Sequence record: MT322327.1
DNA length: 64,000 bases
Reading direction: 5' to 3' (one strand)
From: Escherichia phage SSBS18_WS_10_728
Under the pieces are notes generated by a model. That model was given only the letters and a program-made list of their open reading frames with translations, was not told where the DNA came from and made no database searches. Made by a program: the position numbers and the translations under genes. Below are positions 1,504 to 56,651 of the stretch, in pieces (the stretch's first letter is position 1; each line of letters begins with the position of its first letter).

Positions 1504-1578
1504 TGGCGGGGGATGTTGGAATTGAACCAACTTCTTCGATTTCAAAGACCGAGGTTTTAACCTTGTAAACTAATCCCC
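1504..1578 (-). tRNA. tRNA-Gln (anticodon UUG), tentative
   Basis: T-arm GTTGGTTCAATTCCAAC, anticodon stem TCGGT/ATCGA with loop CUUUGAA, CCA encoded. Confidence 0.5.
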
Positions 1579-1587
1579 TTTAAATCT

Positions 1588-2145: not shown

Positions 2146-2164
2146 TTAAATAGCCTCTTTAAAT

Positions 2165-2240
2165 TGGCGCAGGATAAGGGATTCGAACCCCTATTAACAG
2201 CTTCGTAGACTGTTGCTCTATCCATTTGAACTAATCCTGC
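2165..2240 (-). tRNA. tRNA-Arg (anticodon ACG)
   Basis: Acceptor GCAGGAT/ATCCTGC perfect, anticodon stem ACAGT/GCTGT with loop CUACGAA, T-arm GGGGTTCGAATCCCTT. Confidence 0.55.
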
Positions 2241-2245
2241 AAAAT

Positions 2246-2323
2246 TGGTGTTCCAAGACGGATTCGAACCGTCACTAGTACAAGGTTTGAGCTTGCATCC
2301 TCTGCCAATTGGGATACTGGAAC
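2246..2323 (-). tRNA. tRNA with Leu-type anticodon CAA but short variable arm (isotype uncertain)
   Basis: T-arm GACGGTTCGAATCCGTC, anticodon stem GCAAG/CTTGT with loop CUCAAAC, CCA encoded. Confidence 0.4.
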
Positions 2324-2324
2324 A

Positions 2325-2399
2325 TGGTACTCACTAAAGGACTTGAACCTTTTTCTTCATCTTGTAATGGTGATGTTTTACCATATAAACTAAGCGAGT
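2325..2399 (-). tRNA. tRNA-Val (anticodon UAC), tentative
   Basis: D-stem GTTT/AAAC, T-arm AAAGGTTCAAGTCCTTT, anticodon loop AUUACAA. Confidence 0.4.
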
Positions 2400-2494
2400 G
2401 TGGAAGAGGTCTGAAGTTGTGCCGCTAACTCAACTCCGTGGAATTTGTTACGGTCTTCAGTTGACACCAGCGGTCTTTCACTTGACCTCTGAAT

Positions 2495-2571
2495 TGGTGC
2501 TGCTCACAGGACTCGAACCTGCATTTCCATCCTTACAAGGGATGTGTAATAGCCAATTATACGAAAGCAGC
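2495..2571 (-). tRNA. tRNA-Thr (anticodon UGU)
   Basis: Anticodon stem CATCC/GGATG perfect with loop CUUGUAA, T-arm GCAGGTTCGAGTCCTGT, CCA encoded. Confidence 0.6.
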
Positions 2572-2577
2572 ATTGTT

Positions 2578-2652
2578 TGGAGCATCCAGAGGGAATCGAA
2601 CCCTCAACCTCAGTTTGGAAGACTGTAATTTTCCCGTTTAAACTATGGATGC
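2578..2652 (-). tRNA. tRNA-Gly (anticodon UCC)
   Basis: Acceptor GCATCCA/TGGATGC perfect, T-arm GAGGGTTCGATTCCCTC, anticodon loop CUUCCAA. Confidence 0.55.
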
Positions 2653-2658
2653 ACTAAT

Positions 2659-2734
2659 TGGTGGAGTCACTGAGAATTGAACTCAGTTCCCAAGTTTGCA
2701 AAACTCGAATTTTAACCATATAAACTATGACCCC
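2659..2734 (-). tRNA. tRNA-Ala (anticodon UGC)
   Basis: Acceptor GGGGTCA with G3:U70 pair, T-arm CTGAGTTCAATTCTCAG, anticodon loop UUUGCAA. Confidence 0.6.
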
Positions 2735-2740
2735 AATGTT

Positions 2741-2816
2741 TGGTACAGGTGGAGGGAATTGAACCCATCGTCTTACTGATTAAGAGTCAGCCGCATAACC
2801 ATTTTGCTACACCTGC
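2741..2816 (-). tRNA. tRNA-Lys (anticodon CUU), tentative
   Basis: Acceptor GCAGGTG/CACCTGT, anticodon stem GCTGA/TCAGT with loop CUCUUAA, weak T-stem; paralog of tRNA at 4057..4132. Confidence 0.45.
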
Positions 2817-2823
2817 ATTAATT

Positions 2824-2901
2824 TGGTAGGAGACAAGGGATTCGAACCCTCAAACACCAACTTCTAAGGATGGTAGGTTTACCAATTACCGTCAATCTCC
2901 C
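2824..2901 (-). tRNA. tRNA with Leu-type anticodon UAG but short variable arm (isotype uncertain)
   Basis: T-arm GAGGGTTCGAATCCCTT, CCA encoded, anticodon loop CUUAGAA with 4/5-bp stem. Confidence 0.4.
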
Positions 2902-3156
2902 ATTAAATCTTTTTAGAGAACTTCTAAGAACCTAAGCAACAAGGTTCCACAACAAGCTGTAATAACCTTAGAAGCCCTCTAAAAAGACCTAAATAGGTCT
3001 TTACATAGTCTTGTTTAATCCGGTGACTAGAACCTTTGGAGAGCTTGATATTATCTCTTCTCCGTGACACCTACTAGGTGCTTTACTGTGCGTGTACGAC
3101 AATACACGAGGGATAAACCGAAAATGCGAGCAAGCATGACGGTGTAAATCTTATTA

Positions 3157-3246
3157 GGCGGTAAGTAAAGGAGTCGAACCCTCACCGTATCTCTACAGTG
3201 GCAACAGTTTTCAAGACTGTTTGGCTGCCATTAGCCGCTACCTACC
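3157..3246 (-). tRNA. tRNA-Ser (anticodon UGA), class II
   Basis: Acceptor GGTAGGT/ACTTACC, anticodon stem ACAGT/ACTGT perfect with loop CUUGAAA, long variable arm, T-loop TTCGACT; 3' CC encoded. Confidence 0.6.
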
Positions 3247-3259
3247 CCTAATAAGACTT

Positions 3260-3342
3260 TGGCATGGGACGGAGGAGTTGAACCCCTTTGAAACGGTTTT
3301 GGAGGCCGTTGCTCATGCCTTAGAGTCTTAACATCGTCCCAC
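3260..3342 (-). tRNA. tRNA, possibly Trp (anticodon CCA); atypical length
   Basis: Acceptor GTGGGAC/GTCCCAT, T-arm AGGGGTTCAACTCCTCC, CCA encoded, hairpin with loop CUCCAAA; D region ~7 nt too long in my fold. Confidence 0.35.
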
Positions 3343-3484
3343 ACTATAATTCGAAGCTTACCGTATTTTCGCAACACTGTAAAGCCCCTTCTCAGATTAT
3401 TTACATGTTCTGGAAAACATGAGATACAGACCACCTCCTTACACGGAGACCCGATAAGGTCGTCTAAGCAATCTGCTAACTATT

Positions 3485-3561
3485 TGGCACACCCTACAGG
3501 ATTCGAACCTGTAACTCAATGATTAGAAGTCATTTGCTCTGTCCAGTTGAACTAAGGGTGC
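3485..3561 (-). tRNA. tRNA-Arg (anticodon UCU)
   Basis: Anticodon stem AATGA/TCATT perfect with loop CUUCUAA, T-arm ACAGGTTCGAATCCTGT, CCA encoded. Confidence 0.6.
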
Positions 3562-3854
3562 ATTAATCTTTAAAGACTCTCTTAGAAAGCCCTTAAAGAT
3601 GCCCACTTTATTAATCATACCGTGGGCTAGTACGCCAAATTCTTTGATGAGGGATTGGAAGACCTCACTGGTGTTTAGCCTATCAAGCTACTGCCAGAAA
3701 AACATTGTCGTTTGCATTTATTTTAAATTTGCAAAATAGACGCTACGCAACGAAAACTATTCAGAATATGTACAACAAATTTCCCCACATTGTGTTACGT
3801 CTAACGCTCATGTATTGGTGTTTGAATTATACATATTATGAATCATTTTTAGTT

Positions 3855-3883
3855 ACTATAAAGCGGTCACATCTCAATGTCAA
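3855..3883 (-). promoter_or_regulatory. sigma70-like promoter reading leftward into tRNA genes
   Basis: Minus strand: -35 TTGACA, 17-bp spacer, -10 TATAGT. Confidence 0.5.
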
Positions 3884-3898
3884 CAACTTTATTGAAAT

Positions 3899-3974
3899 TG
3901 GTACTGGTAGGTGGAATCGAACCACCGATATTCCCTTATCAGGGGAGTGTTATAACCTTCTTAACTATACCAGC
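3899..3974 (-). tRNA. tRNA-Ile (anticodon GAU)
   Basis: Acceptor GCTGGTA/TACCAGT, T-arm GGTGGTTCGATTCCACC, anticodon loop CUGAUAA. Confidence 0.55.
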
Positions 3975-3975
3975 T

Positions 3976-4052
3976 TGGAGGTTCAGATGGGAATCGAACC
4001 CACATTCATAGGGCTTATGAAACCCCTGCATTACCTTATCTGCGACTGAACC
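3976..4052 (-). tRNA. tRNA-Met (anticodon CAU; elongator or Ile2-type)
   Basis: Acceptor GGTTCAG/CTGAACC perfect, anticodon stem GGGGT/GCCCT with loop UUCAUAA, T-arm GTGGGTTCGATTCCCAT. Confidence 0.55.
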
Positions 4053-4056
4053 ATAT

Positions 4057-4132
4057 TGGTAGAAGTGGAGGGATTCGAACCCATCGCCTGTCAGATTAAA
4101 AGTCTGCCGCATCACCATTCTGCTACACTTCC
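4057..4132 (-). tRNA. tRNA-Lys (anticodon UUU)
   Basis: Acceptor GGAAGTG/CACTTCT, anticodon stem GCAGA/TCTGA with loop CUUUUAA, CCA encoded. Confidence 0.5.
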
Positions 4133-4333
4133 ATTAAATTATCTTTGTAGATAAGCTACCCAGACTTGCTTAAGGTCTGTAGCGATGTGCCTTGTTGGGT
4201 TTAAATCTAGAATTTACCCTTTCACCCTTTGTGGTCGCATACTCACAGGTAAGCTTAATAGCTCACCTACAAAGATAATTACCAGACCGTTGTTTATCAT
4301 CTTAAGTGCTACCATTACACCAACTCGACATCT

Positions 4334-4357
4334 GCCGAGTGAAGGAATCGAACCTTC
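4334..4357 (-). other. orphan tRNA T-arm-like element (possible tRNA remnant)
   Basis: Perfect T-arm GAAGGTTCGATTCCTTC on minus strand but no matching 5' acceptor strand or CCA nearby. Confidence 0.3.
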
Positions 4358-4393
4358 GCCTTTTCTTTACCGGAGAAATAGATTGTTTAAGTT

Positions 4394-4413
4394 TTGCTGT
4401 AAACGGTCTTCTG
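4394..4413. repeat. tRNA-cluster repeat copy A (TTGCTG-N5-GGTCTTCTG)
   Basis: One of four 20-nt copies; CCAGACC partner at 4281 and 4424. Confidence 0.6.
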
Positions 4414-4483
4414 TAAATTTGTTGAGCCAGACCAAGTTTTAAATTTTTTCAAAATTAAATTGGCTTGAAAATATCATACGTGC

Positions 4484-4503
4484 TTGCTGAATTTGGTCTT
4501 CTG
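4484..4503. repeat. tRNA-cluster repeat copy B
   Basis: TTGCTGAATTTGGTCTTCTG; CCAGACC partner at 4424. Confidence 0.6.
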
Positions 4504-4591
4504 CTCCTTTAAAGAACACTCGTAAGAACCCTTTAAGGGAGGGGCTAAAATAGCCCTCTCAAAACATCATCTTGAAATACTTATTATAATT

Positions 4592-4669
4592 TGGCGGTTA
4601 CGAAGGGATTTGAACCCTCATCATCTCCCGTGACAGGGGAGTATTTTAACCAGATTAAACTACATAACC
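4592..4669 (-). tRNA. tRNA-Asp (anticodon GUC)
   Basis: Anticodon stem CTCCC/GGGAG perfect with loop CUGUCAC, T-arm GAGGGTTCAAATCCCTT, CCA encoded. Confidence 0.65.
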
Positions 4670-4675
4670 TTTATT

Positions 4676-4763
4676 TGGTGTGCCGTGTAGGAGTCGAACC
4701 TACCGAGTCTCAATGACAAGGGATTTACAGTCCCCACCGCTACCATCTACGGGATAACGACAC
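4676..4763 (-). tRNA. tRNA-Tyr (anticodon GUA), class II
   Basis: Acceptor GTGTCGT/ACGGCAC, anticodon loop CUGUAAA, long variable arm, T-arm GTAGGTTCGACTCCTAC, CCA encoded; 88 nt. Confidence 0.6.
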
Positions 4764-4772
4764 ATTTAAATT

Positions 4773-4849
4773 TGGCGGTTAGTCAGGGATTCGAACCCTG
4801 TGCCATTCGCTTAACAGGCGACCGCACATACCTTATGTGCTTCCTAACC
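4773..4849 (-). tRNA. tRNA-Asn (anticodon GUU)
   Basis: D-stem GCAC/GTGC, anticodon loop CUGUUAA, T-arm CAGGGTTCGAATCCCTG, CCA encoded. Confidence 0.6.
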
Positions 4850-4900
4850 TTAATACATTGCCAGACCGTGTTTTTTCTTTTATCCGCAAAAAGTATTTTG

Positions 4901-4920
4901 TTGCTGAATACGGTCTTCTG
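4901..4920. repeat. tRNA-cluster repeat copy C
   Basis: TTGCTGAATACGGTCTTCTG, 6 nt from 3' end of tRNA-Met; CCAGACC partner at 4861. Confidence 0.6.
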
Positions 4921-4926
4921 CAAAAT

Positions 4927-5003
4927 TGGAGGCGGGTGCAGGAGTCGAACCTGCCGATACCATGCTAATGAGACATGTGAGACGCCCTTTCTCTATACCC
5001 GCA
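4927..5003 (-). tRNA. tRNA-Met (anticodon CAU), possible initiator
   Basis: Anticodon stem CATGT/GCATG with loop CUCAUUA, T-arm GCAGGTTCGACTCCTGC, unpaired 1:72 position, CCA encoded. Confidence 0.5.
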
Positions 5004-5067
5004 ATTCTTAATGACCAGACCAAATCTCTTCTTTGTCCGATTTACCTTCAGATGAATAAGATTAAGT

Positions 5068-5087
5068 TTGCTGTAATTGGTCTTCTG
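5068..5087. repeat. tRNA-cluster repeat copy D
   Basis: TTGCTGTAATTGGTCTTCTG, 7 nt from 3' end of tRNA-Glu; CCAGACC partner at 5015. Confidence 0.6.
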
Positions 5088-5094
5088 TCAAAAC

Positions 5095-5172
5095 TGGCGT
5101 TCCAGAAGGGATTTGAACCCTCAAATATCCACTTTGAAAGAGTGGTGACTTTACCATTTTGTCCACTGGAAC
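5095..5172 (-). tRNA. tRNA-Glu (anticodon UUC)
   Basis: Anticodon stem CCACT/AGTGG perfect with loop CUUUCAA, T-arm GAGGGTTCAAATCCCTT, CCA encoded. Confidence 0.6.
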
Positions 5173-5179
5173 ATTAATT

Positions 5180-5256
5180 TGGTCTCTGTTGGAGGACTTG
5201 AACCTCCGGCCTTACCGCCCCAAACGGAACGCTCTACCAAGCTGAGCTAAACAGAG
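5180..5256 (-). tRNA. tRNA-Pro (anticodon UGG)
   Basis: Acceptor CTCTGTT/AACAGAG perfect, anticodon loop UUUGGGG, T-arm GGAGGTTCAAGTCCTCC, CCA encoded. Confidence 0.6.
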
Positions 5257-14744: not shown

Positions 14745-14752
14745 AATATTTT

Positions 14753-14787
14753 AAGAGCCTCCTTAATTGGGGGCTTTTTAATTTTTA
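14753..14787 (+). terminator. rho-independent terminator ending the plus-strand block
   Basis: Hairpin AGCCTCC...GGGGGCT followed by TTTTTAATTTTT. Confidence 0.55.
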
Positions 14788-14789
14788 TA

Positions 14790-16360
14790 AAATTTTATCG
14801 GTTGTCCCAACCTCTGGGTCACCATCATATGTGAATAAAATATCTATCCTTCTTAACAGCCTTCTTAATCTTACTCTCTATATAGTTATATAGTACTATA
14901 TAGTATCTTAGTATCTATCTAGTGGTCTTAATAGCACCTCTGTATAGCCCTTCTAAACACTCTTCTAACAAGCCTTCTTAACAGCCTATACAATCACCTT
15001 AACCATTCCTCTACACCCTCTTAGAAGCTCCTATACACCTCTTAATCTCTAGGTTAGCTATGATACTCTCTATAGGTGTTCACTAGGAAATACTAAGCCT
15101 CTATATAGACTGTTTTAACAAACTTAACAGGAATATCTTTACAGACCTTATCTCACAAGGTCTAACACGGTACTAACAAGGTATCTTATAAGCCTGTTTA
15201 TGCCTGTATTTTTAAAAGACTGTCTAGGTAATTATTCAGAATTTTAAAATTTTTATAAAATAGGACTATCAAGTCATTTTTTAGGGTCTTTGAAGGAACT
15301 GAAAAATATCTGTAGAGTTGATTCGGTAGAGCCTACCTCATGATGTATATCTGCTTGGTAGCCCTTAACATCCTTGTAACATCCCCTTTGCAGAATTTTA
15401 AAATATCATTAACAATCTCTTAACAGTTGCTACATCTTCTTAACATCTCTTCAGAGGTCTTAACAGATTCTTAACAGAACTAACAAGAGCTTAACAGTTT
15501 TTTAACAAGTGCTGAATAGTCTTTACAGAGGTTTAACAGATGACTAACAAGTCCTAAGAAGTTAATTTTAAAGGGTTATTTTGTAAAGATAATTAACAAG
15601 TTCCTAACAAGTGTTTAACCTTTTTAACAAGCTATTAACATGGTCACTATCTCTTGGTCTATAGTTCCCTCTCCCTCTTAGTGACCCTTTAAACATACCT
15701 CTTAAAAGCTCTCCATAGCTCTTTGTAAGCTCTTTTAAGTCTCTTCCTAGTAGTTACACCCCCAACTATACAGAAAGCTATTTATAGGGCTTTACAGGAG
15801 CTTTTAAGGCTATGTCAAAGACTCTTACAAGGCTTTTACGTGGTTTTAACAGAGATTTAACAAGGGGCTAACAAGTTGCTAACAAGTACCTTAAAAGCAT
15901 AACTATGTAGGGTTTGTTAAGAAATTGTTAAGAAAATGTTAAGGGGGCTAGCATTTACGTAACTTTATAGCCTCTTTTACGTAACTTTGAAGTAACTTTA
16001 TAGCCTCTTTTACGTAACTTTATAGCCCCTATAACATACTTTTTAGTGACTATCAAGGGGGTTGTTTAGTTATTCACAAGATACTAACGAGATGATAAAG
16101 CTTACACCCTTATAAGATTCTTTTAAGGCTCTGGTAAGCTTTATAAAGGGATTTTAAGGGTGAAGTAATGCAATCCCTTAAGTTAGGTTAAAAAGGCTGT
16201 TATAGGGCTTTATAGAGCGTTTTAGTGGTTGCCCTTCCCTTTCGGGTTATGGGCTTATATTTAAGTTGATTTGATAAAAGGCTATAGAGTAGACTATAGA
16301 GTTATTGCTTTTAAGGTCTAGTAAGATTCTGGAAAGGAAAGGGAAAGGATTTAATAAGAC
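14790..16360. repeat. 1.6-kb noncoding region dense in short direct repeats
   Basis: No ORF of 60 aa or more on either strand; about 20 copies of TTAACAG/TAACAAG, TATATAG runs, ~23-bp direct repeats TACGTAACTTTATAGCCTCTTT at 15955-16030. Confidence 0.7.
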
Positions 16361-16362
16361 GT

Positions 16363-16387
16363 AAAAAAGCCCCATTTAAGGGGCTGT
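16363..16387 (-). terminator. rho-independent terminator ending the minus-strand small-gene array
   Basis: Minus strand: hairpin AGCCCC-TTAAAT-GGGGCT followed by TTTTTT. Confidence 0.55.
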
Positions 16388-16423
16388 AAAGGTATCTGGG
16401 GCTATTTAGCCCCGTTGCGGCGT

Positions 16424-23217: not shown

Positions 23218-24003
23218 TTAGTTCTTTGCGCCTAAAAAGGTAACTTCTGGTGAAGAGAAAATTTCCTCAACATTCTCATCAGTTCTTGCATAGATATATG
23301 TGTCTGCATCACTGCCAAATGTTACTGCAATTCTGTGATTGCTCTTCGACAGGTGGGTAACTAGAGCGTTACTTAGAGACATCTTTTCAACCGGAGGGTT
23401 ACTTTGATGTATCTCGCCTTTTCTTCGTCTGAAGAGGGTAACTGCATCATCAGTGAACGTTACTACACCTGCAAAGTATTCTGGTTCACAGTAGTTCTTC
23501 CAACCTGAGCGTAACTTGTGGTACATCTCCCCTTCGTAGACATACAGATACACATCTACACTCTTCATCACCTGATTAATGATAACGGTAACGGCTTGAG
23601 GGTCCAGTCCACCGATACCTGCACCAATCATAGGTAACCCAACTTTCTTCAACTGATTCACTTCACAGTATCTGTTAAACTGTTTCAAAGATGACTCTAA
23701 AGCACTGTATCGAGCATCTTTACCAGTCTTAAGCTGAGTGTAAAGGTTAGCTATACGGCCTTGTTTTAAACGTGCTACAGAGAAATTGCCTAGTAAATTC
23801 TCACAGGGCTTGTGGCCTATTCCACCTGCATACAGATAAACTTCTGTATCAGTCTCATATGCTTTTGGGTAAAGTTTAGAAATCTTGTCAGCGATACCTG
23901 CACCCATTAAGTTCATACAGTTGCAACCGTGACCGATGACGTCAAACTTACCTTTATCAAATGCTGCAAAGATATCACCATTGATAATTTTTACAATACC
24001 CAT
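23218..24003 (-). CDS. macro-domain protein (ADP-ribose binding/hydrolase-like) with C-terminal extension
   Basis: N-terminal motifs NGDIF, VIGHGCNCMNLMGAGIA, IGAGIGGL typical of Macro/Appr-1-p processing domains. Confidence 0.6.
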   Translation of the reverse strand: MGIVKIINGDIFAAFDKGKFDVIGHGCNCMNLMGAGIADKISKLYPKAYETDTEVYLYAGGIGHKPCENLLGNFSVARLKQGRIANLYTQLKTGKDARYSALESSLKQFNRYCEVNQLKKVGLPMIGAGIGGLDPQAVTVIINQVMKSVDVYLYVYEGEMYHKLRSGWKNYCEPEYFAGVVTFTDDAVTLFRRRKGEIHQSNPPVEKMSLSNALVTHLSKSNHRIAVTFGSDADTYIYARTDENVEEIFSSPEVTFLGAKN

Positions 24004-32101: not shown

Positions 32102-32124
32102 TAAAAAGGCTCCCGTAGGAGCCT
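32102..32124 (-). terminator. rho-independent terminator
   Basis: Minus strand: GGCTCC-TACG-GGAGCC then TTTTTAATTT. Confidence 0.55.
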
Positions 32125-32138
32125 CTTATCATATACTT

Positions 32139-33920
32139 TTAAAGCTGCTTGTCAATATTATTTCGAATATCACCAAGAGTTGTGTAGCCGAACTGCTCAG
32201 AGTCGCTAAAGACCAAGCGTAAAGCACAAGCTGGGTGTTCAAGTGCATCTGCAAAGCTTTGGAACCCATAGCCATCTACAGCTTTCAGATTTTCACCATC
32301 CCACATAGGTGCTACACCACCAAAAGCAGACTTCTTAACACCGCTGTCTGTTTTAGGGTCTTTTGCAAGCATAATCTCTTTACCACCAATGCTTGCCAGA
32401 GTTGCTTTAACAGCAAATGCAAAGGTGTCACGAGTCATGTACTGGTAAGTGTAAGAACCTACACCAAACACTACGTTAGAGCTTGCAAAACCCATTTCAT
32501 ACAAACGTTTCAGGATTTCGTTTGCACGTTCCAACGTGATAGAGTCACCATAAATAAGCCCGATATGCTCATCCAGTACTTTAAAGCCTTTAGAGTTGAT
32601 AGTTCCTCCAAAGATATTATACAGTGTCTTGATAGCTCCATCAATCTCCGCTACAGGACGTGTGACAACGTTTGCAGAACCAACCATATAAGCGTTTTTC
32701 AACAGCACTGTATCAGCAACTTCAAAGTCTTCTCTGTCAACAACCATTTCGTAGCCTTCTGACAGTAGCCACCCAGCAATACCATAGTTGATGTTTTCAA
32801 GCTTCATGTTCAGAACAGCATTCAACATTGTGTCGCTGGCTTCCAGCTTGCTTAGGTGTTCGTAATAAGCCTTTTTAGCACACTCTAAGTGGATTGCTTT
32901 ATAGCCTGTGACAATATGTACAGGGTCTCCAGAGTCAGGACGAATTACCAGTTTGCCATCACGTTCCATAATCTCTTTACGGAGTTCTGGGAGTATCACT
33001 GATACAGTTCTCCAGAAGTTATAAGTATCTGAAACAACACTTGCAATACCAGTTGGGTAAGTTTCTGTTAAGAAACGACGGAAGGTTTGTAACTCACCTT
33101 TAAAGCGTCTTTCTTCTTCAATCAACTCATTCCCACCTTCCCAAGCAATGTTTGCACACATGACAGAGTGCTCGGTGGCTGGTACAGAACTACCAATATC
33201 AGAGATTGGGTAGGACTGCCCATAGATGCGTTTAGCTGTATACACAGCAGGGAAGCTATCAGTCCCTTTAAAGCTGGTTAAGTGACCTACAGCGTTAAAT
33301 GCGTCATCAGTAAAGCCGGACATACCACGCATAGCAAAATCATGGCACTGATAAGGTAAATGTAAGTCATTGTCACAAGTAAGGTCAGACCACTTCTTAC
33401 AGATACGTTTGTAGTGCAATGCAATAGTTGCAATGGTACAAGCCTTCCAAATCTCAGCAGAGAAAGCATCTTCCAGATACCCCGCTACCCAATGGAAACC
33501 TGAAACAGTGTTCTGGAAGACAACCATTGGTACACGCATAGGAACAACTGTGCCTTCTTCTACAGCGTATACTTCAACTGGTAGATAACCTAAGTCGTGA
33601 AGTGCTTCCCAATGTTCTCGACCAATAGCATCTTTACCCAGAACACCGTTCATGACTTCTAAGATTTCGTCAATTGCTTCTTTTTTGTCACGTTCAAAGA
33701 AGGTGGCGTTCCAGTGGTCTATCAAGTAATCTTTAACAAAACGTTGAATACCAAAAGCTACTACACCATCAATTGCTAAAGGGCTGTTAAACCATTTATC
33801 ACTACGTGGTGTCAGGTTAAACATCAAGTACTCTGTCGCACTAGGATACTGATAAATATGGCCAGACTTGTAAGCATCCGCGTTTAAACCTGCTGGTACT
33901 GCATAAAGTGATTTAGTCAT
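32139..33920 (-). CDS. nicotinamide phosphoribosyltransferase-like (NAMPT/NadV family; possibly Namat)
   Basis: Motifs VPATEHSVM, VVSDTYN, IRPDSGDP; start set to ATG 33920 with GAGAGA RBS. Confidence 0.75.
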   Translation of the reverse strand: MTKSLYAVPAGLNADAYKSGHIYQYPSATEYLMFNLTPRSDKWFNSPLAIDGVVAFGIQRFVKDYLIDHWNATFFERDKKEAIDEILEVMNGVLGKDAIGREHWEALHDLGYLPVEVYAVEEGTVVPMRVPMVVFQNTVSGFHWVAGYLEDAFSAEIWKACTIATIALHYKRICKKWSDLTCDNDLHLPYQCHDFAMRGMSGFTDDAFNAVGHLTSFKGTDSFPAVYTAKRIYGQSYPISDIGSSVPATEHSVMCANIAWEGGNELIEEERRFKGELQTFRRFLTETYPTGIASVVSDTYNFWRTVSVILPELRKEIMERDGKLVIRPDSGDPVHIVTGYKAIHLECAKKAYYEHLSKLEASDTMLNAVLNMKLENINYGIAGWLLSEGYEMVVDREDFEVADTVLLKNAYMVGSANVVTRPVAEIDGAIKTLYNIFGGTINSKGFKVLDEHIGLIYGDSITLERANEILKRLYEMGFASSNVVFGVGSYTYQYMTRDTFAFAVKATLASIGGKEIMLAKDPKTDSGVKKSAFGGVAPMWDGENLKAVDGYGFQSFADALEHPACALRLVFSDSEQFGYTTLGDIRNNIDKQL

Positions 33921-33966
33921 CTTTTTAATCTCTCTCAAAATGGGGCTTGTAAGCCCCTATAAAGTT

Positions 33967-34848
33967 TCAATCAATGGTTACTACAGTAACTTGTGCATAA
34001 TGTGTTAAGCCACGGTCTTTAGCTTCCCCTAAAGAGTTTGTAGTGTAGATATGGTCAATACCATTGTCAAGTAAGTTTTCAACCCCTTTAGAGAAAATGC
34101 CATGAGTTACATAGAGTTCCACACGTTTTGCACCTGCTTCACGAAGATGTTTAGCTGCCTCTATGAAGGTTCGACCACCATCACAAATATCATCCAGAAT
34201 CATGACGGTTTTATCTGTCAAATCAACATCATCAAGGATTCGCATACCAGTAATTTCACCAGTCTTAAGGTTGCGTACTTTAGACATTGTGATATATGGT
34301 TTATCCACCTCTTTAGCAGTCTCTTCAGTCTTCTTAGCTGCACCTGCATCTGGGGCTACCAAGAAATCAATGCGTGGGTCACTTGCAAAGTGTGCTGCTA
34401 CATCTTTTTGCTTCATGCTCTGAAAGCACTTAAATAAGTTTTCTGCAACATTACTGTGAGGGTCAAGAGCACATACTGCATCAAAACCCATTGCATTAAC
34501 GAGGTTGGAAAAAGCTTTCAGTGCTGCTGAATCACCTTTGAACATATGGCGGTCATATCGAGCATTCGGTAAGAACCCGAAAACAACGGTTTTCATCGCT
34601 GATTTGTATGGAACAAGGCTGTCAACGGCATCCTTAGCCAAAGCTAATGCAAACAGTGTATCTTTATCATATCCCTGCACAGTCAATATAACATTGTCAA
34701 TCTTACCAGCATTACGCTCAGTAAACTTAACAAAATCTTCAGAGAAGTTTCCACCAATTTCTCCAGATGGGAATTGGATGATATTAAATTTTTCTGTGTG
34801 GAAGAATTTCTCTTGTGCGGTGACAACGGCTTCAATAATAGTTTTCAT
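33967..34848 (-). CDS. ribose-phosphate pyrophosphokinase-like (Prs family; possibly ADPR pyrophosphokinase)
   Basis: PRPP-binding loop VMILDDICDGGRT and Prs-like N-terminal half; start set to ATG 34848. Confidence 0.7.
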   Translation of the reverse strand: MKTIIEAVVTAQEKFFHTEKFNIIQFPSGEIGGNFSEDFVKFTERNAGKIDNVILTVQGYDKDTLFALALAKDAVDSLVPYKSAMKTVVFGFLPNARYDRHMFKGDSAALKAFSNLVNAMGFDAVCALDPHSNVAENLFKCFQSMKQKDVAAHFASDPRIDFLVAPDAGAAKKTEETAKEVDKPYITMSKVRNLKTGEITGMRILDDVDLTDKTVMILDDICDGGRTFIEAAKHLREAGAKRVELYVTHGIFSKGVENLLDNGIDHIYTTNSLGEAKDRGLTHYAQVTVVTID

Positions 34849-34861: not shown

Positions 34862-35140
34862 TTAATCAAAAGTTACGTTTGTTACTGCCATTGCAGATTT
34901 GCATTTTGCAGGGTCTACAACGTGATAAAGTACACTACAGTTGCCTGTGCTGTCTGGTACAGGTTTAACCCATTGTTGCTTGACAGTTGGTTCTCCTAAG
35001 TCTTTGTAAGAGCCATCTGTAAAATTGTTTACCATCTCAAGTGCAATTGGTTCTGGAACATGACCACGAATCATATACATCTCACAACCATTTCCAGCAT
35101 CACTTATTAGGTCTTTTATTTCCCAATCTGCTTTAGCCAT
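34862..35140 (-). CDS. hypothetical protein
   Basis: ORF 34862..35167; start probably ATG 35140. Confidence 0.4.
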   Translation of the reverse strand: MAKADWEIKDLISDAGNGCEMYMIRGHVPEPIALEMVNNFTDGSYKDLGEPTVKQQWVKPVPDSTGNCSVLYHVVDPAKCKSAMAVTNVTFD

Positions 35141-35648
35141 TGTAAGTTGCCCTATAAACTGTCTCAAACTTCAACAGGAGAGATATTGCCAAATCTGTAT
35201 AGTTGTTGTCAAGCACATCTGGCATATTATTTTTGATATATTTCTCTTGCTCTTCATAGGTCATCTTAGGAATGCTTAGGAGTCTATCTCCTTGCTTCTG
35301 GTTATCAGCTTTAGTTTGGATAAACCAGTTTGCACAGTGATGCTCGCCACCTTTTGTAACAGGCTTGTGGTGACCTAATGTGAAGGACTGGTTACCTGTG
35401 TACCTACAAAGCTTATTGAGCACTGCAATGGTGTTCTTAACAACAAAACATTCATACAGGTTGTCTATGGTGTAATATGGATAATAGCGGAATAGTGCTC
35501 TTTCACGAGTACTATCACGATTCCAGAGAATCATGTGATTTGAGTTAGAAGGGTCGTATTGGTGGGAGTCAATGAACTCTTGACGTTCCTCAAAGCTTAG
35601 TCTTAGAACTGACATTGCAGCCGAACGTTTTAGATTTGACAGATACAT
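35133..35648 (-). CDS. HNH endonuclease
   Basis: Motif GHHKPVTKGGEHHCANW. Confidence 0.55.
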   Translation of the reverse strand: MYLSNLKRSAAMSVLRLSFEERQEFIDSHQYDPSNSNHMILWNRDSTRERALFRYYPYYTIDNLYECFVVKNTIAVLNKLCRYTGNQSFTLGHHKPVTKGGEHHCANWFIQTKADNQKQGDRLLSIPKMTYEEQEKYIKNNMPDVLDNNYTDLAISLLLKFETVYRATYNG

Positions 35649-35699
35649 TTTATCTCCAAAATAAAAAGGGAACCTTTACAGTCCCCTTATAGTATCTGT

Positions 35700-52890: not shown

Positions 52891-53147
52891 GTAAGCCTCT
52901 TTTAAGTAACTATTAAGTTTTAATCTTTTATCTTAACGTATTCTATACGTTATACTTTAAAGCTTTTTAAAAGCTATTAAATAATCTTTTAAGAGTTTTA
53001 AAGTATCTGTATAGTTAAACTGTTAAGTAACCTTTTAAGTAAAAACCCACTTCGCAAAGATTAACACCTTGTCAAGTACATTGTCAACTTGCTTTTTATA
53101 ATTTTTTGCAGTAATGTATGAGGTTAATGATTTTAGAGGGAGTAAAA

Positions 53148-55290
53148 ATGGAAAACGTAGATTTTAAAAACTTACATTTAGTTGGTGATACAGAAACTGA
53201 TGGTTTACTCCTTGAGTTCACTAAGGTGCACGTAATGGCTTTCGCAGACTATAAATCTGACGATGAAGAGCCACCTGTATGGGTCTTTACAGACGAGCCT
53301 ATCCTCGGTCACAAGTATACCAAGCACATTAAGGGTGGTTTACGTGAAGGTGTTGAGTTTGCGTTAAAGGCAAAACGACTTTGCATCCATAATGGTCTGG
53401 GATATGACTGGTGGGTTTTCAATCACATCGCACCTGATTTGTGGAACTTTGATAATCCAAAGTGTAAACCGTGGAGTAATTTCTTTCAGGACTCTCTTAT
53501 CCAGTCTCGTGTTCAGTGGATGGATAGACCAACTCCAAAAGGCTATAAAGGTGCTCATGGCTTGGCTGCATGGGGTGCTCGTGTTGGTGTACGTAAACCA
53601 GAGATTGAACATTGGGGTGTGTGGAATGCAGAAATCTTCACTCGTGTTGTGGAAGATATCCGTATTAACGCCAAAACTAAACGTGCACTGGATAATGAAT
53701 ACCTGAAGTTAAAGAAGTGTGGTATAGACACTTATGAAACCTATATGCGAGCTAAAGAAACATCTTTCTGGATGAGTCAACAAGCTATCAATGGTTGGAA
53801 AGCTGATAAAGAGCTTATGGAGTTCCATGTAAAGGAGCTTGACAAGTTGACTAATGAGCTTGCTTCGGAAGTTGAACCACACCTTCCTCCAACTATTAAG
53901 ACCAAAGGTAAAGTCACTGGAGAAGAGTTTGCAAAAGCTTGGAATGAGTATGTGGAAGCGTTCGGTCATGCAGATGGACTGAAGAGAATTACCAAGTACC
54001 CTAAGACGAAGTACCGTCAGCAGGTACGTAACGGTGAGATGCAGACATACGAAATCAAACCATTTGGTAAGCCAACTACAAAGATTTTTAACATTGAAAA
54101 GAGAAATTGTTATACACCAACCAACTCTGTAACTGGTGAAGAGTACAAGGAAGGTTTTGTAGCAATGAAGGATGCTCGTGCAATTTGCAATGAGTTGAAT
54201 GCAAAGATTGGTAAGAAATGCAAAGACTGGAAGCCAGTAAAAACAGTTAAAACTGTGAAGTACTATAACAGTCATGTTGTTAACCACTTTGAGCTTGAGT
54301 CAAGTCGCTACACAGGTTTGATTGATGCACCATATACCCCAATTGAGTTCGAAGTTTCTCGTATGACTCAGGTAGCAGTTGTTAAAGACTACTTGAAATC
54401 AGTTGGTTGGATTCCAGATGACTGGAACTACAAGAAAGACTCAGATGGTCGTCCTGTCAAAGTTTGTCGTTTCAAAGACAACAAAAAGATGATTACAAAG
54501 CATCCTAAGTGGCAGGAGATGGTTGAACGGTGTGGCTTGAGTTATGTTGAACATGAAGGTGTCCAGTACATTGAACATAACTGGTCTGTGAAGAAGTACA
54601 CAGATTTGCTTGAGCCTTGCTTAATCCGTACTTCACCAAAACTTACTGAATCTTCTTACGATACGATTGAAGGTGAGCTTGGACAGAAGATTGCTAAGTA
54701 CTACACTTTGATGCACCGACGCAGAACTATTGAGAACTCAAAGGATGATGAAAAAGGCTGGTTGAACCAGATTCGTCCTGATGGTCGCCTTAGTGCTGGT
54801 GCAATGGTATTTGGTACTTCAACTGGACGTATGACACAATATGGTATTGTAAACGTACCGTCTGGTGCTGCTGTCTATGGGGAACCGATGAGGGCAGTGT
54901 GGATTTGTGAAGAAGGTACTAACGTTGTCTCTGTAGACATGAACTCAGCCCAGCTAGTTCTCCTTTGTAACTTTATGGGTGACAAAGAGTTCACTAAAGC
55001 AGTAACTGAAGGTAAAGAGTCAGTAGAATTTACCAAGCAAGAAGATGGGAGATATTATTGCAAACATCTTGATAAGTACCTTAATCCAGAAACTGATAAG
55101 TATCTTCGTTATGATGCTGAGAATGACCTCTATGAAGTCTACACAGGTACTGATGCACATACACTGAACAGTATCTATTTTGCATTGAACAAAGAGGATG
55201 ACATTATTCGTTGTAGAGAAACTCAGGATGAAGAACTTCTTCACGAGATAACTAAAGGCCGTAAGAAGGCTAAGAATGGTATCTATGCGT
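53148..55290 (+). CDS. DNA polymerase family A, exon 1 (3'-5' exonuclease and N-terminal polymerase domains)
   Basis: Exo I motif VGDTETDGL; motif A VDMNSAQLVLL; AGAGGGA RBS before ATG 53148; reading frame is interrupted where polymerase motif B begins. Confidence 0.75.
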
Positions 55291-55557
55291 CAGTGGCGCA
55301 TGTAAAACGTTGTGAATTGCTGGAAGCCTAAGTCTGAGAAGATACGGTAATCAGCAGCGAAGCCTCTTGAGAGGAACGTTCAGAGACTATCGAAAAGCAT
55401 ACTTAATGTATGAACTGAGTAGAGTAGGGTGGTAAGCTAATGACCATTCCCAAGTGCAACGGTAGCATCCTGCTACGTGATATAGTCCGACACTCCGTAG
55501 AAATGCGGAGAAGTTCATAAGAGAACTGGTACACCTTGCGAGTGTATTGACCAGATG
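55291..55557 (+). ncRNA. group I self-splicing intron in the DNA polymerase gene
   Basis: Exon 1 ends in U paired to G of internal guide GCGCA (P1 = exon UGCGU with intron GCGCA); intron ends in G; splicing restores in-frame motif B ...IYALLFGAGDEKF... Confidence 0.7.
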
Positions 55558-56114
55558 TATTGTTCGGTGCAGGTGATGAGAAGTTTGCCAAAACTATCAA
55601 GGCATCATCTACGGAAGAAGGTGCATTGACTAAACAAACTTACTATATGCGTCTGCCAAAGATTAAGAAGTTACTTGATAGCTTAGAAGCCGATTTTAAG
55701 GCGTCTAAAAAGGCTCTGGAAGAGGTTTTCGGGAAGAACTCTTCAATTGCTAAAGGTGGTTATATCAGGGTTGCTGGAGCATGGATATGGTGCAAATCTC
55801 CACATAAACTGCTGAACTACCTTCTGATGAGTTCGGAAGCACAGATTCAGAATGAGGCCATCAACCTAGCAGCAAGAAAAGCTTGTGAAGATGGTCTGAC
55901 AAAACTGAATGCTCGAAAACCAGCTATCGGAGCAAGGTTACTTCTGGCATATCACGATGAAAATAGTTGGGAATGTCCAGAGGGTATGACACATGATATG
56001 AAAGCAATTGCTGACTGGATGTATGGACAAGCTTCAAAAAACTTAGGTTTGAGGAAAGAAACACTTGTAACTGGCACAGCAAAGGTTGGTAAGAGTTGGT
56101 ATGAGGTACATTGA
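55558..56114 (+). CDS. DNA polymerase family A, exon 2 (motifs B and C)
   Basis: LFGAGDEKFAK matches T7-type motif B YGAGDEK; motif C YHDE; no ATG start, in frame after splicing. Confidence 0.75.
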
Positions 56115-56117
56115 TTG

Positions 56118-56651
56118 ATGGATTTTATTTCACAAGAACGTTTAAAGGAGCTGCTGCACTATGACCCCGAAACAGGGGTCTTTACTTGGCTTCGTAGAGA
56201 AGGTAAATCAAGAGCTGTTAGTGTTTTTAACAGTAACTATGCAGGAAAGGTAGCAGGTAATATCCAGACTGATTCAAGTGGTCATAAACAGATTAGTATC
56301 TATTTTGACAAGAAAGCACATAAAGCACACAGACTCGCATGGCTTTACGTGTATGGCAAGATGCCAAAAGGTATCATTGACCATATCAACGGAGACTCAC
56401 TTGACAACAGGATTGTAAACTTAAGGGAAGCAGATGATTTTCAAAGTGCTTGGAATAAAGGTAAACCAGTCACCAATAAATCTGGGTACAAGGGTGTAAG
56501 CCTTAAGAAGAAGTCTGGTAAGTGGGTCGCACAGATAAGTTATAAAGGTAAGAAGATGTTTTTAGGTTACCATGATACACCTGAAGAAGCCCATAAAGCT
56601 TACTGTGAAGCTGCTGTGAAACTCCACGGAGAGTTTGCAAAACTATCTTGA
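56118..56651 (+). CDS. HNH endonuclease with AP2 DNA-binding domain
   Basis: HNH motif DHINGDSLDNRIVNLR and AP2-like GYKGVSLKKKSGKWVAQISYKGKKMFLGYH; directly after the polymerase. Confidence 0.65.
   Translation: MDFISQERLKELLHYDPETGVFTWLRREGKSRAVSVFNSNYAGKVAGNIQTDSSGHKQISIYFDKKAHKAHRLAWLYVYGKMPKGIIDHINGDSLDNRIVNLREADDFQSAWNKGKPVTNKSGYKGVSLKKKSGKWVAQISYKGKKMFLGYHDTPEEAHKAYCEAAVKLHGEFAKLS

What the first reader, a model, noticed from the sequence alone, without database searches (positions are those of the whole stretch)
32139..34848. Adjacent Prs-like and NAMPT-like genes: candidate NAD+ reconstitution (anti-defence) module
A ribose-phosphate pyrophosphokinase homolog (PRPP-binding loop LDDICDGGRT) sits directly upstream of a nicotinamide phosphoribosyltransferase homolog (VPATEHSVM, VVSDTYN, IRPDSGDP) on the same strand, with no NMN adenylyltransferase in the window. 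This pairing matches the recently described phage two-enzyme NAD+ reconstitution route (Prs-like ADPR pyrophosphokinase plus NAMPT-like transferase), which would counter NAD+-depleting host immunity. It is distinct from the NadV + NMNAT salvage pair.
Basis: partly seen in the sequence, partly recalled or inferred. Interest (0 to 1): 0.8.

Follow-up and report, generated by a model that had tools for sequence, protein, structure and literature searches.

The report
Known phage NAD+ rebuilding operon (NARP1)

Summary
Two co-oriented minus-strand genes, 46 nt apart, encode a Prs-like protein (33967-34848, 293 aa) and a NAMPT-like protein (32139-33920, 593 aa). No NMN adenylyltransferase was found among 108 ORFs in the window.

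The window is a FelixO1-like phage (Felixounavirus). The two proteins are 96% and 97% identical, without gaps, to gp79 and gp80 of phage Bas63 (JohannRWettstein). That is the operon whose deletion defined NAD+ reconstitution pathway 1 (NARP1; Osterman et al. 2024).

- **Adps:** the catalytic-loop lysine is kept (K190, equivalent to SPbetaL1 K162).
- **Namat:** 17 of the 19 published ligand-contact residues are identical and two are conservatively substituted. The ADPR-PP selectivity motif is present (GSYTYQYMTRD).

That paper's tables already list FelixO1 and its relatives.

Side observations:
- The same phage encodes an unlinked Macro-domain protein (23218-24003). It belongs to the same family as Adpp, the ADPR-1''-phosphate phosphatase that extends NARP1 against aRES defence. 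The published search looked only within two genes of NARP1.
- This Namat carries a roughly 90-residue insertion found only in Ounavirinae.

The parts
33967..34848 (-). adps: ADPR-pyrophosphate synthetase (Prs-like), 293 aa. Catalytic-loop Lys K190 is at codon 34279-34281. The PRPP-type loop LDDICDGGRT lies at 34168-34197.
   Evidence: 96% identity, no gaps, to Bas63 gp79. Pfam Pribosyltran + Pribosyl_synth. phrog_619 5e-98. K190 aligns with SPbetaL1 Adps K162. Scores below every NCBIfam Prs equivalog cut-off.
32139..33920 (-). namat: nicotinamide ADPR-transferase (NAMPT-like), 593 aa. The selectivity-clamp helix motif GSYTYQYMTRD (aa 488-498) lies at 32427-32459. Clamp loop residues are K42-W43. 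R327 corresponds to SPbetaL1 R306.
   Evidence: 97% identity, no gaps, to Bas63 gp80. 1.7e-127 to the SPbetaL1 Namat crystal structures 9w5w/9w5x. Residue mapping. Motif definition.
32628..32909 (-). Lineage-specific insertion inside namat (aa ~338-431). Absent from the crystallised SPbetaL1 enzyme; a shorter, unrelated-looking insert sits at the same site in Vibrio phage IW18.
   Evidence: Alignments. tblastn of the segment finds only Namat genes of 253 Ounavirinae records. No credible Pfam match (best E 0.036, below cut-off).
33942..33957 (-). GC-rich hairpin (GGGGCU-UACA-AGCCCC, then AUUUU) in the 46-nt adps-namat spacer. Possibly a weak attenuator or an mRNA-stabilising element (inferred).
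   Evidence: MFE -13.8 kcal/mol, z -2.77. The stem is identical in Bas63 and the loop differs. Not called by the terminator scan because the T-run has only 4 T.
32104..32127 (-). Terminator-like hairpin 12 nt after the namat stop codon; likely 3' end of the transcription unit (inferred).
   Evidence: 10-bp stem, 5 GC pairs, T-run. The AYO145A record annotates a terminator under this locus.
35666..35688 (-). Terminator-like hairpin upstream. Together with the one at 32104-32127 it brackets a possible four-gene unit: two small ORFs, adps and namat (inferred).
   Evidence: 9-bp stem plus T-run.
34862..35648 (-). Two co-oriented upstream ORFs of unknown function (35133-35648, 171 aa; 34862-35140, 92 aa), equivalent to Bas63 gp77 and gp78. 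Possibly co-transcribed; not shown to belong to the pathway.
   Evidence: phrog_3500 and phrog_4726, function unknown. Weak HNH hit phrog_2214, E 1.9e-4, for the 171-aa ORF. No Pfam family. The published Bas63 deletion did not include them.
23218..24003 (-). Unlinked Macro-domain protein (261 aa: Macro domain aa 3-157 plus a ~100-aa C-terminal extension). Candidate ADPR-1''-phosphate phosphatase (Adpp-like). Membership in the pathway is speculative.
   Evidence: Pfam Macro 1.3e-07. phrog_335 'phosphatase' 1e-110, the same PHROG as the Macro gene inside the IW18 NARP1-AP operon. 27% identity, E 2e-13, to the biochemically validated Gary Adpp. The family profile hits OARD1/TARG1, DarG and yeast Poa1p.

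Best explanation
The pair is the NARP1 operon of a FelixO1-like phage. When a host defence system (SIR2-HerA/Nezha, type I Thoeris, DSR1/2, SEFIR, Kongming and similar) cleaves NAD+ into ADP-ribose and nicotinamide, the first enzyme (Adps) uses ATP to put a pyrophosphate on the free ribose C1'' of ADP-ribose, giving ADPR-PP. The second enzyme (Namat) swaps that pyrophosphate for nicotinamide and regenerates NAD+ directly, with no NMN intermediate and no adenylyltransferase. This keeps NAD+ high enough for the phage to replicate. What is shown here is orthology and conservation of the functional residues. The chemistry is shown in the literature for the SPbetaL1 enzymes. The genetics and the ADPR-PP metabolite are shown for Bas63. 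Transfer of all this to the window's proteins is inferred from 96-97% identity.
For: (1) 96% (280/293) and 97% (578/593) identity, no gaps, to Bas63 gp79 and gp80, with flanking genes in the same order: rIIB, rIIA, three small ORFs, namat, adps, two small ORFs, nrdG. (2) In Bas63, deleting genes 79-80 gave about 20-fold fewer plaques on SIR2-HerA and deeper NAD+ depletion. ADPR-PP (m/z 720.010) appeared only with the wild-type phage. [quoted passage not shown] (3) All 25 mapped Namat positions are identical except four. The 19 published ligand contacts account for three of these: S190 to A and A362 to S are conservative, and R40 to K42-W43 is the Bas63-type clamp arrangement. The fourth is the variable motif position N397 to M495. 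The signature GS-X-phi-X-phi-X-phi-TRD reads GSYTYQYMTRD, with aromatic residues at motif positions 3 and 7. (4) Adps K190 aligns with SPbetaL1 K162, whose K162A mutant kills the pathway. (5) The window Adps is closer to Adps of the NARP1 operons of SPbetaL1 and IW18 (94.7 and 125 bits) than to host E. coli Prs (62.8 bits), and falls below all NCBIfam Prs equivalog cut-offs, for example 95.6 against 297. (6) None of the 13 Adps or 15 Namat differences from Bas63 falls on a mapped functional residue. Synonymous to non-synonymous codon differences are 37:13 and 89:15, which fits purifying selection. (7) No NMNAT in the window. (8) Felixounavirus entries are listed as Adps/Namat pairs in the 2024 supplementary tables.
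Against: No enzyme from this phage, or from Bas63, has been assayed in vitro. The biochemistry and crystal structures come from SPbetaL1 homologues that are only 33% (Adps) and 43% (Namat) identical over the blastp-aligned regions. The Felixounavirus Namat carries a ~90-residue insertion of unknown role that the crystallised enzyme lacks. Namat also makes NMN from PRPP in vitro when ADPR-PP is absent, so some ordinary salvage activity is not excluded. I found no simple sequence signature separating Adps from Prs in the ribose-phosphate loop: DGGRT, SFGGT and DGGAS against DTGGT.
Confidence: 0.95

Rival explanations
1. Ordinary NAD+ salvage booster. The first enzyme is a true PRPP synthetase and the second a true NAMPT/NadV that makes NMN. 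Host NadR or PncC/NadD would then finish NAD+ synthesis. This is what the database annotations say.
For: Nearly all GenBank records annotate the pair as 'ribose-phosphate pyrophosphokinase' and 'nicotinamide phosphoribosyltransferase'. The broad TIGR01251 Prs subfamily model passes its cut-off, 133 against 113. NF006629 passes for the second protein. [quoted passage not shown]
Against: [quoted passage not shown] ADPR-PP, not an NMN route, was detected. With both substrates present, only NAD+ was made. The window Namat carries the adenine-binding clamp motif that Nampt lacks. All Prs equivalog models fail by a wide margin.
Confidence: 0.03
2. Nucleotide-supply module. The Prs-like enzyme raises PRPP for purine and pyrimidine synthesis during phage DNA replication, and its position next to the NAMPT-like gene is incidental.
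For: The operon sits among nucleotide-metabolism genes: nrdG/nrdD, nrdA/nrdB, dNMP kinase, thyA and folA.
Against: 97% of Adps-clade genes have a Namat neighbour across unrelated phages. The pairing holds in SPbetaL1, IW18 and Erwinia phage M7 in quite different gene contexts. The deletion phenotype is specific to NAD+-depleting defence.
Confidence: 0.01
3. Split three-enzyme pathway (NARP1-AP in trans). The pair works as NARP1 but is extended by the unlinked Macro-domain protein at 23218-24003. That protein would dephosphorylate ADPR-1''-phosphate, the product of aRES defence, to ADP-ribose and so feed Adps.
For: Same PHROG as the operon-encoded Adpp-type Macro, 1e-110 against 3e-50. 27% identity, E 2e-13, to the validated Gary Adpp, with shared H-x-CNC, MG-x-GIA and LP-x-IG-x-G motifs. 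The profile reaches yeast Poa1p ADPR-1''-phosphatase at 4e-9. aRES occurs in E. coli, Klebsiella and Enterobacter, and NARP1 alone fails against it. The published search looked only within two genes of NARP1 and lists no Escherichia or Salmonella phage. NARP1 and this Macro gene are both kept, in the same order, in the distant Ounavirinae phage M7.
Against: phrog_335 Macro genes occur in about 2,800 phage records, including the RB69 tk.4 gene and its T4-like homologues, so the family is far more widespread than NARP1-associated Macro genes. The window protein is closer to those Tk.4 proteins (33-40% identity) than to Gary Adpp (27%). The profile's best structural relatives are OARD1/TARG1 and DarG, so de-ADP-ribosylation or O-acyl-ADPR hydrolysis are equally open. 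Co-retention in Ounavirinae may simply reflect core-genome synteny. There are no data on Bas63 versus aRES.
Confidence: 0.25

Closest known systems
NARP1 of Escherichia phage Bas63 / JohannRWettstein, genes 79-80 (Osterman et al. 2024, bioRxiv 10.1101/2024.02.11.579819; published in Nature 2024 to my knowledge)
   Same: Same genus and same gene order. Identical protein lengths (293 and 593 aa). 96% and 97% identity. Same spacer hairpin stem, same Namat insertion, same K-W clamp loop.
   Different: 13 and 15 amino-acid substitutions, none at a mapped functional residue. 93.7% nucleotide identity over the locus. In this window nrdD appears uninterrupted, whereas the Bas63 nrdD is annotated as joined from two pieces; this is unrelated to NARP1.
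NARP1 of Bacillus phage SPbetaL1: Adps and Namat, the enzymes assayed in vitro and crystallised (PDB 9w5w/9w5x; PMC12774641)
   Same: Same two-gene order. Catalytic Lys in Adps. Conserved Namat catalytic core and the GSX-phi-X-phi-X-phi-TRD clamp helix.
   Different: Only 33% (Adps) and 43% (Namat) identity over the blastp-aligned regions. In SPbetaL1 the genes overlap with no spacer. The SPbetaL1 Namat is 491 aa and lacks the ~90-aa and ~15-aa insertions. Its clamp loop uses Arg40, where this protein has Lys42-Trp43.
NARP1-AP of Vibrio phage Gary / IW18: Adps-Adpp(Macro)-Namat (bioRxiv 10.64898/2026.01.28.702374)
   Same: Adps and Namat are homologous (38% and 40% identity over the blastp-aligned regions). 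A Macro protein of the same PHROG exists in this phage.
   Different: Here no gene lies between or within two genes of adps and namat. The Macro gene is about 8 kb downstream, has an extra ~100-aa C-terminal domain, and is only 27-28% identical.
NARP2 of Vibrio phage KVP40: Nampt (NadV) plus bifunctional Nmnat (NatV)
   Same: The second enzyme belongs to the same NAMPT superfamily. Both pathways restore NAD+ and counter NAD+-depleting defences.
   Different: NARP2 uses PRPP and an NMN adenylyltransferase. No Nmnat is present in the window, and the window enzyme carries the Namat-specific adenine clamp.
Cellular Prs (E. coli b1207) plus NAMPT/NadV salvage
   Same: Same folds and chemistry type: pyrophosphoryl transfer to ribose C1, then displacement by nicotinamide.
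   Different: 27% identity to E. coli Prs. Below all Prs equivalog cut-offs. The N-terminal segment of Prs is missing. The substrate is ADP-ribose rather than ribose-5-phosphate, according to the literature.

Membership tests
NARP1 (Adps + Namat) | Adps belongs to the phage Adps clade of the Prs family, not to cellular Prs | tested here: met
   96% identity to Bas63 gp79, one of the clade's seed sequences. Bit scores of 94.7 and 125 to Adps of the NARP1 operons of SPbetaL1 and IW18, against 62.8 to E. coli Prs. Fails all NCBIfam Prs equivalog cut-offs.
NARP1 (Adps + Namat) | Catalytic flexible-loop lysine in Adps (SPbetaL1 K162, B. subtilis Prs K197) | tested here: met
   K190 in MSKVRN aligns with K162 in GHKQRN. 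It is unchanged relative to Bas63.
NARP1 (Adps + Namat) | Namat homologue within ten genes of adps | tested here: met
   namat starts 46 nt downstream of the adps stop codon, on the same strand.
NARP1 (Adps + Namat) | Nampt-like catalytic core in Namat (nicotinamide and NMN-ribose contacts, catalytic His, R306) | tested here: met
   D15, Y17, F195, R198, D221, A248, H251, R327, D329, G458 and D459 are conserved. S190 to A196 and A362 to S460 are conservative changes.
NARP1 (Adps + Namat) | Selectivity-clamp helix signature GS-X-phi-X-phi-X-phi-TRD, with aromatics at motif positions 3 and 7 (absent from Nampt) | tested here: met
   G488-S-Y-T-Y-Q-Y-M-T-R-D498. The same pattern occurs in the SPbetaL1 and IW18 Namats. 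The third phi position is Met rather than the usual Asn or Val.
NARP1 (Adps + Namat) | Selectivity-clamp loop supplies a residue that stacks on adenine | tested here: inconclusive
   The loop reads TPRSDKWFNSP and is identical in Bas63. The paper states that when Lys occupies the third position, as in Bas63, the next residue (here Trp43) does the stacking. Position 42 maps to R40. The stacking itself rests on their AlphaFold3 model and was not tested here.
NARP1 (Adps + Namat) | Enzymology: ADPR + ATP gives ADPR-PP; ADPR-PP + nicotinamide gives NAD+ | not testable with these tools
   Shown in vitro for the SPbetaL1 enzymes. ADPR-PP was detected in Bas63-infected cells.
NARP1 (Adps + Namat) | Counter-defence phenotype against NAD+-depleting systems | not testable with these tools
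   Shown for Bas63 with genes 79-80 deleted on SIR2-HerA, and for cloned NARP1 against Thoeris I, DSR1/2 and SEFIR. Inferred here from orthology.
NARP2 (Nampt + Nmnat) | An NMN adenylyltransferase encoded in the same phage | tested here: not met
   No PF01467-type or Nudix hit among the window's 108 called ORFs. Felixounavirus Namats are flagged 'Adps-associated' in the 2024 table. The part of the genome outside the window was not scanned.
NARP1-AP (Adps + Adpp + Namat) | Macro-domain phosphatase within two genes of the NARP1 genes | tested here: not met
   The flanking ORFs (gp77, gp78, gp81 and gp82 equivalents) have no Macro hit. The only Macro gene is about 8 kb away, at 23218-24003.
NARP1-AP (Adps + Adpp + Namat) | Macro protein homologous to Adpp/Poa1p with ADPR-1''-P phosphatase activity | tested here: inconclusive
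   Homology is met: phrog_335 1e-110, E 2e-13 to Gary Adpp, profile to Poa1p 4e-9. Activity is untestable, and the profile is at least as close to OARD1/TARG1 and DarG.
Bona fide ribose-phosphate pyrophosphokinase (Prs) | Reaches the curated equivalog score of a Prs model | tested here: not met
   Best equivalog is NF002095 at 109.7 bits against a cut-off of 296; all others are lower. Only the broad TIGR01251 subfamily model passes.

The most novel reading that the evidence does not exclude
FelixO1-like phages (Ounavirinae) may run a split version of the extended pathway NARP1-AP. The unlinked Macro-domain protein at 23218-24003 would dephosphorylate ADPR-1''-phosphate made by aRES-type NAD+ phosphorylases, feeding ADP-ribose to Adps and Namat encoded 8 kb away. 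Its family is the same as the validated Adpp phosphatase, but it carries an extra C-terminal domain. The published survey required the Macro gene to lie within two genes of NARP1, so it would have missed this arrangement and undercounted aRES-resistant phages. No Escherichia or Salmonella phage is currently listed as NARP1-AP.
Probability: 0.25. Interest if true: 0.45.

Novelty: already known. Interest (0 to 1): 0.15.

Why it matters
For the finding itself, the value lies in annotation. About 250 Felixounavirus records still label these genes 'ribose-phosphate pyrophosphokinase' and 'nicotinamide phosphoribosyltransferase'. They are in fact Adps and Namat, a counter-defence module that predicts the phage will plate on hosts carrying SIR2-, TIR-, DSR- or SEFIR-type NAD+-depleting systems. 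This matters when choosing therapeutic phages, because FelixO1-like phages are widely used against Salmonella and E. coli. It adds no new biology. The side-lead, an unlinked Adpp-like Macro protein, would widen the known reach of NARP1 against aRES if confirmed, and would show that anti-defence pathways need not be operonic.

Tried and rejected
1. I looked for an NMNAT, Nudix or RyR-type (RyDEP) partner anywhere in the window by Pfam-scanning the 108 called ORFs. None was found.

2. I looked for a Macro/Adpp gene inside or beside the operon. None is there.

3. I tried to derive a simple Adps-versus-Prs signature in the ribose-phosphate loop from four Adps sequences and E. coli Prs. The loop is not consistent among Adps (DGGRT, SFGGT, DGGAS against DTGGT), so I dropped it.

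4. I scanned Pfam for the Namat insertion, the Macro C-terminal extension and the two upstream ORFs. Nothing credible appeared; the best hits were E 0.036 and 0.006, both below cut-offs.

5. I searched the aRES preprint and its supplements for Bas63, BASEL or Felixounavirus challenge data. There are none.

6. I checked whether the distant Ounavirinae phage M7 keeps the Macro gene without NARP1, which would have weakened the link. It keeps both, so the test was uninformative beyond showing conserved synteny.

7. The sigma-70 and terminator scan is not enriched overall (3 terminators found against 3.9 expected). The transcription-unit boundaries are therefore only an inference from two strong intergenic hairpins.

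8. I did not run the large protein-database searches, structure prediction or fold search. Near-identity to experimentally characterised proteins had already settled the question.
Full report
**Observation**

The region holds two co-oriented ORFs on the minus strand. The upstream one runs from the ATG at 34848 to 33967 (293 aa). It carries Pfam Pribosyltran (2.5e-12) and Pribosyl_synth (2.1e-09) and matches phrog_619 'ribose-phosphate pyrophosphokinase' at 5e-98. The downstream one runs from the ATG at 33920 to 32139 (593 aa). It carries NAPRTase (2.2e-34) and NAMPT_N and matches phrog_448 'nicotinamide phosphoribosyl transferase' at 8e-202.

The two genes are 46 nt apart. The spacer contains a GC-rich hairpin and a GAGAG ribosome-binding site.

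I made 108 rough gene calls for the whole window. Apart from the two target genes, which were scanned on their own, I scanned them against Pfam as concatenated pseudo-proteins. No NMN adenylyltransferase, Nudix or RyR-type family appeared.

**What the window is**

Megablast of the locus finds 257 phage records, nearly all Escherichia, Salmonella, Shigella or Citrobacter phages of the genus Felixounavirus, at 80-96% identity. The surrounding genes fit a FelixO1-like genome: rIIA/rIIB, nrdG/nrdD, nrdA/nrdB, thymidylate synthase, DHFR, a primase-helicase and 26 tRNA genes.

**Identity with the founding NARP1 operon**

One megablast hit is Escherichia phage JohannRWettstein (Bas63), at 93.7% nucleotide identity over the whole locus. 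Its genes bas63_0079 and bas63_0080 occupy the same positions in the same gene order. The window proteins are 280/293 (96%) and 578/593 (97%) identical to them, with no gaps.

Genes 79-80 of Bas63 are the operon with which Osterman et al. discovered NAD+ reconstitution pathway 1:
- Deleting them gave about 20-fold fewer plaques on SIR2-HerA cells and stronger NAD+ depletion.
- ADPR-pyrophosphate appeared only with the wild-type phage.
- Purified SPbetaL1 homologues converted ADPR + ATP to ADPR-PP (Adps), and ADPR-PP + nicotinamide to NAD+ (Namat). NAD+ was the only product when PRPP competed.

The 2024 supplementary tables already list FelixO1, AYO145A, VpaE1_ev035 and JohannRWettstein as Adps/Namat carriers.

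**Residue-level membership tests**

The 2026 structural paper on SPbetaL1 Namat (PMC12774641) defines two things: a Nampt-like catalytic core, and an adenine-binding 'selectivity clamp'. The clamp has a variable loop and a helix with the signature GS-X-phi-X-phi-X-phi-TRD. I mapped the window protein through the HMMER alignment to PDB 9w5x.
- The core residues are conserved: D15, Y17, F195, R198, D221, A248, H251, R327 (equivalent to R306, whose mutation abolishes activity), D329, G458 and D459.
- The helix reads GSYTYQYMTRD, with aromatic residues at the two adenine-stacking positions. The SPbetaL1 and Vibrio phage IW18 Namats show the same motif.
- The clamp loop has Lys42-Trp43. This is the 'Lys, then the next residue stacks' arrangement the authors describe for Bas63.

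For Adps, K190 aligns with SPbetaL1 K162 (K162A is inactive). The window Adps scores higher against Adps of the NARP1 operons of SPbetaL1 and IW18 (94.7 and 125 bits) than against host E. coli Prs (62.8 bits). It falls far below every NCBIfam Prs equivalog cut-off.

None of the 13 and 15 substitutions relative to Bas63 touches a mapped functional residue. Synonymous changes outnumber non-synonymous ones, 37:13 and 89:15.

**Mechanism**

The best-supported explanation is that host NADases split NAD+ into ADPR and nicotinamide. Adps then pyrophosphorylates ADPR using ATP, and Namat couples ADPR-PP to nicotinamide, giving NAD+ in two steps without NMN or an adenylyltransferase.

The basis for each step differs:
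- The chemistry is shown for SPbetaL1 enzymes that are only 33% and 43% identical over the blastp-aligned regions.
- The genetics and the metabolite are shown for Bas63.
- The step to this window is inferred from near-identity.

Two strong terminator-like hairpins on the minus strand, at 35688-35666 and 32127-32104, bracket two small ORFs of unknown function plus adps and namat. This suggests a four-gene transcription unit. That is an inference, because the scan is not enriched over shuffles. The spacer hairpin has an identical stem and a different loop in Bas63. It may attenuate transcription or stabilise the mRNA.

**Rivals**

- *Ordinary salvage (true Prs plus true NadV feeding host NadR or PncC).* This is what the database annotations say. 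It is contradicted by the delta-pncC delta-nadR result, by the ADPR-PP metabolite and by the clamp motif.
- *A pure nucleotide-supply role.* This is contradicted by the near-universal Adps-Namat linkage across unrelated phages and by the defence-specific phenotype.

**Things outside the finding**

1. *Namat insertions.* The Felixounavirus Namat is about 100 residues longer than the crystallised enzyme. There is a ~15-residue insert at aa 258-272 and a ~90-residue insert at about aa 338-431. The larger insert matches only Namat genes of 253 Ounavirinae records (45-100% identity) and no credible Pfam family (best E 0.036, below cut-off). The word 'insertion' does not occur in the structural paper.

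2. *An unlinked Macro-domain gene.* A Macro-domain gene lies about 8 kb downstream on the same strand, at 23218-24003. A January 2026 preprint shows that aRES defence proteins split NAD+ into nicotinamide and ADPR-1''-phosphate, which NARP1 cannot use. It also shows that 15% of NARP1 phages insert a Macro-domain phosphatase (Adpp) into the operon to overcome this. Their search covered only two genes on either side of NARP1.
   - Evidence for a link: the window's Macro protein falls in the same PHROG as the operon-encoded Macro of Vibrio phage IW18 (1e-110 against 3e-50). It is 27% identical (E 2e-13) to the validated Gary Adpp, with shared motifs. A family profile reaches yeast Poa1p ADPR-1''-phosphatase at 4e-9. 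No Escherichia or Salmonella phage is listed in their NARP1-AP table. The distant Ounavirinae phage M7 keeps NARP1 and this two-domain Macro gene in the same order.
   - Evidence against a specific link: the family occurs in about 2,800 phage records, including the RB69 tk.4 gene and its T4-like homologues. The window protein is closer to those than to Adpp. The profile's best structural relatives are OARD1/TARG1 and DarG, although the position of the TARG1 catalytic lysine is a family-invariant glutamine here.
   - I rate a functional 'split NARP1-AP' at about 0.25.

3. *Other features.* A group I intron (Rfam RF00028, 60.6 bits) sits at 55279-55510, apparently in the DNA polymerase gene, with an HNH/AP2 endonuclease ORF a little further downstream. 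An AT-rich, ORF-poor 1.7-kb stretch at 14745-16414 is packed with TTAACAG/CTAACAAG-type repeats.

**Verdict**

The module is a near-identical orthologue of the founding, experimentally characterised NARP1 operon, in a genus already catalogued for it. Novelty: already known. Interest: low (0.15). The most novel reading not excluded is the unlinked Adpp-like Macro protein completing the pathway against aRES.

Noticed in passing
window 23218-24003 (-): Macro-domain protein of 261 aa: Macro domain at aa 3-157 plus a ~100-aa C-terminal extension with no family match. It is in the same PHROG (335, 'phosphatase') as the Adpp ADPR-1''-P phosphatase of NARP1-AP operons, and 27% identical (E 2e-13) to the validated Gary Adpp. 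The family profile hits OARD1/TARG1, DarG and Poa1p. It is unlinked to NARP1, so the published two-gene-neighbourhood survey would have missed it.
   Followed up: partly
window 32628-32909 (-), inside namat (aa ~338-431); also aa 258-272: Insertions of about 90 aa and 15 aa relative to the crystallised SPbetaL1 Namat. The large one occurs only in Ounavirinae Namat genes (253 records, 45-100% identity), has no credible Pfam match (best E 0.036, below cut-off), and is conserved in sequence within the subfamily. Its role is unknown.
   Followed up: partly
window 33942-33957 (-): Hairpin GGGGCU-UACA-AGCCCC followed by AUUUU, in the 46-nt spacer between adps and namat. z-score -2.77. The stem is identical in Bas63 and the loop differs. 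Possibly an attenuator or an mRNA stabiliser.
   Followed up: partly
window 34862-35648 (-): Two conserved ORFs of unknown function (171 aa and 92 aa; Bas63 gp77 and gp78 equivalents) lie between an upstream terminator-like hairpin and adps, so they may be co-transcribed with NARP1. The 171-aa protein has a weak HNH-endonuclease hit (phrog_2214, E 1.9e-4).
   Followed up: partly
window 55279-55510 (+): Group I intron (Rfam RF00028, 60.6 bits against a gathering score of 50). It lies between an ORF at 53118-55331 and an ORF at 55560-56114 that carries the C-terminal part of DNA_pol_A. An HNH_3 + AP2 endonuclease ORF follows at 56118-56651. The DNA polymerase gene appears to be split by the intron.
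   Followed up: no
window 14745-16414: A 1.7-kb stretch with no ORF of 45 aa or more and the lowest GC in the window (~0.35). It is dense in short TTAACAG/CTAACAAG-type direct and inverted repeats, with a reiterated ~22-nt unit at 15954-16043. Phages finno and garuso annotate it as 'repeat_region'. It is less conserved (80-92%) than the flanking genes. Possibly an origin or a regulatory region.
   Followed up: partly
window 228-5256 (-): Cluster of 26 tRNA genes covering 20 amino-acid specificities (all except Trp; Met twice). My crude gene caller produced several spurious ORFs over them.
   Followed up: no
window 32128-32155 (-): Near-consensus sigma-70 promoter-like site (TTGACA-16-TATGAT, 11 of 12 matches). 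It overlaps the last codons of namat and sits immediately upstream of the terminator-like hairpin at 32127-32104, an odd promoter/terminator juxtaposition.
   Followed up: no
L002 (Vibrio phage IW18) 1-7468: In this Thalassavirus the Adps-Macro-Namat operon is flanked by genes annotated as RNA ligase (gp169 and gp182, RNA ligase 2). This is reminiscent of the tRNA-splicing context of yeast Poa1p, but may be coincidence.
   Followed up: no
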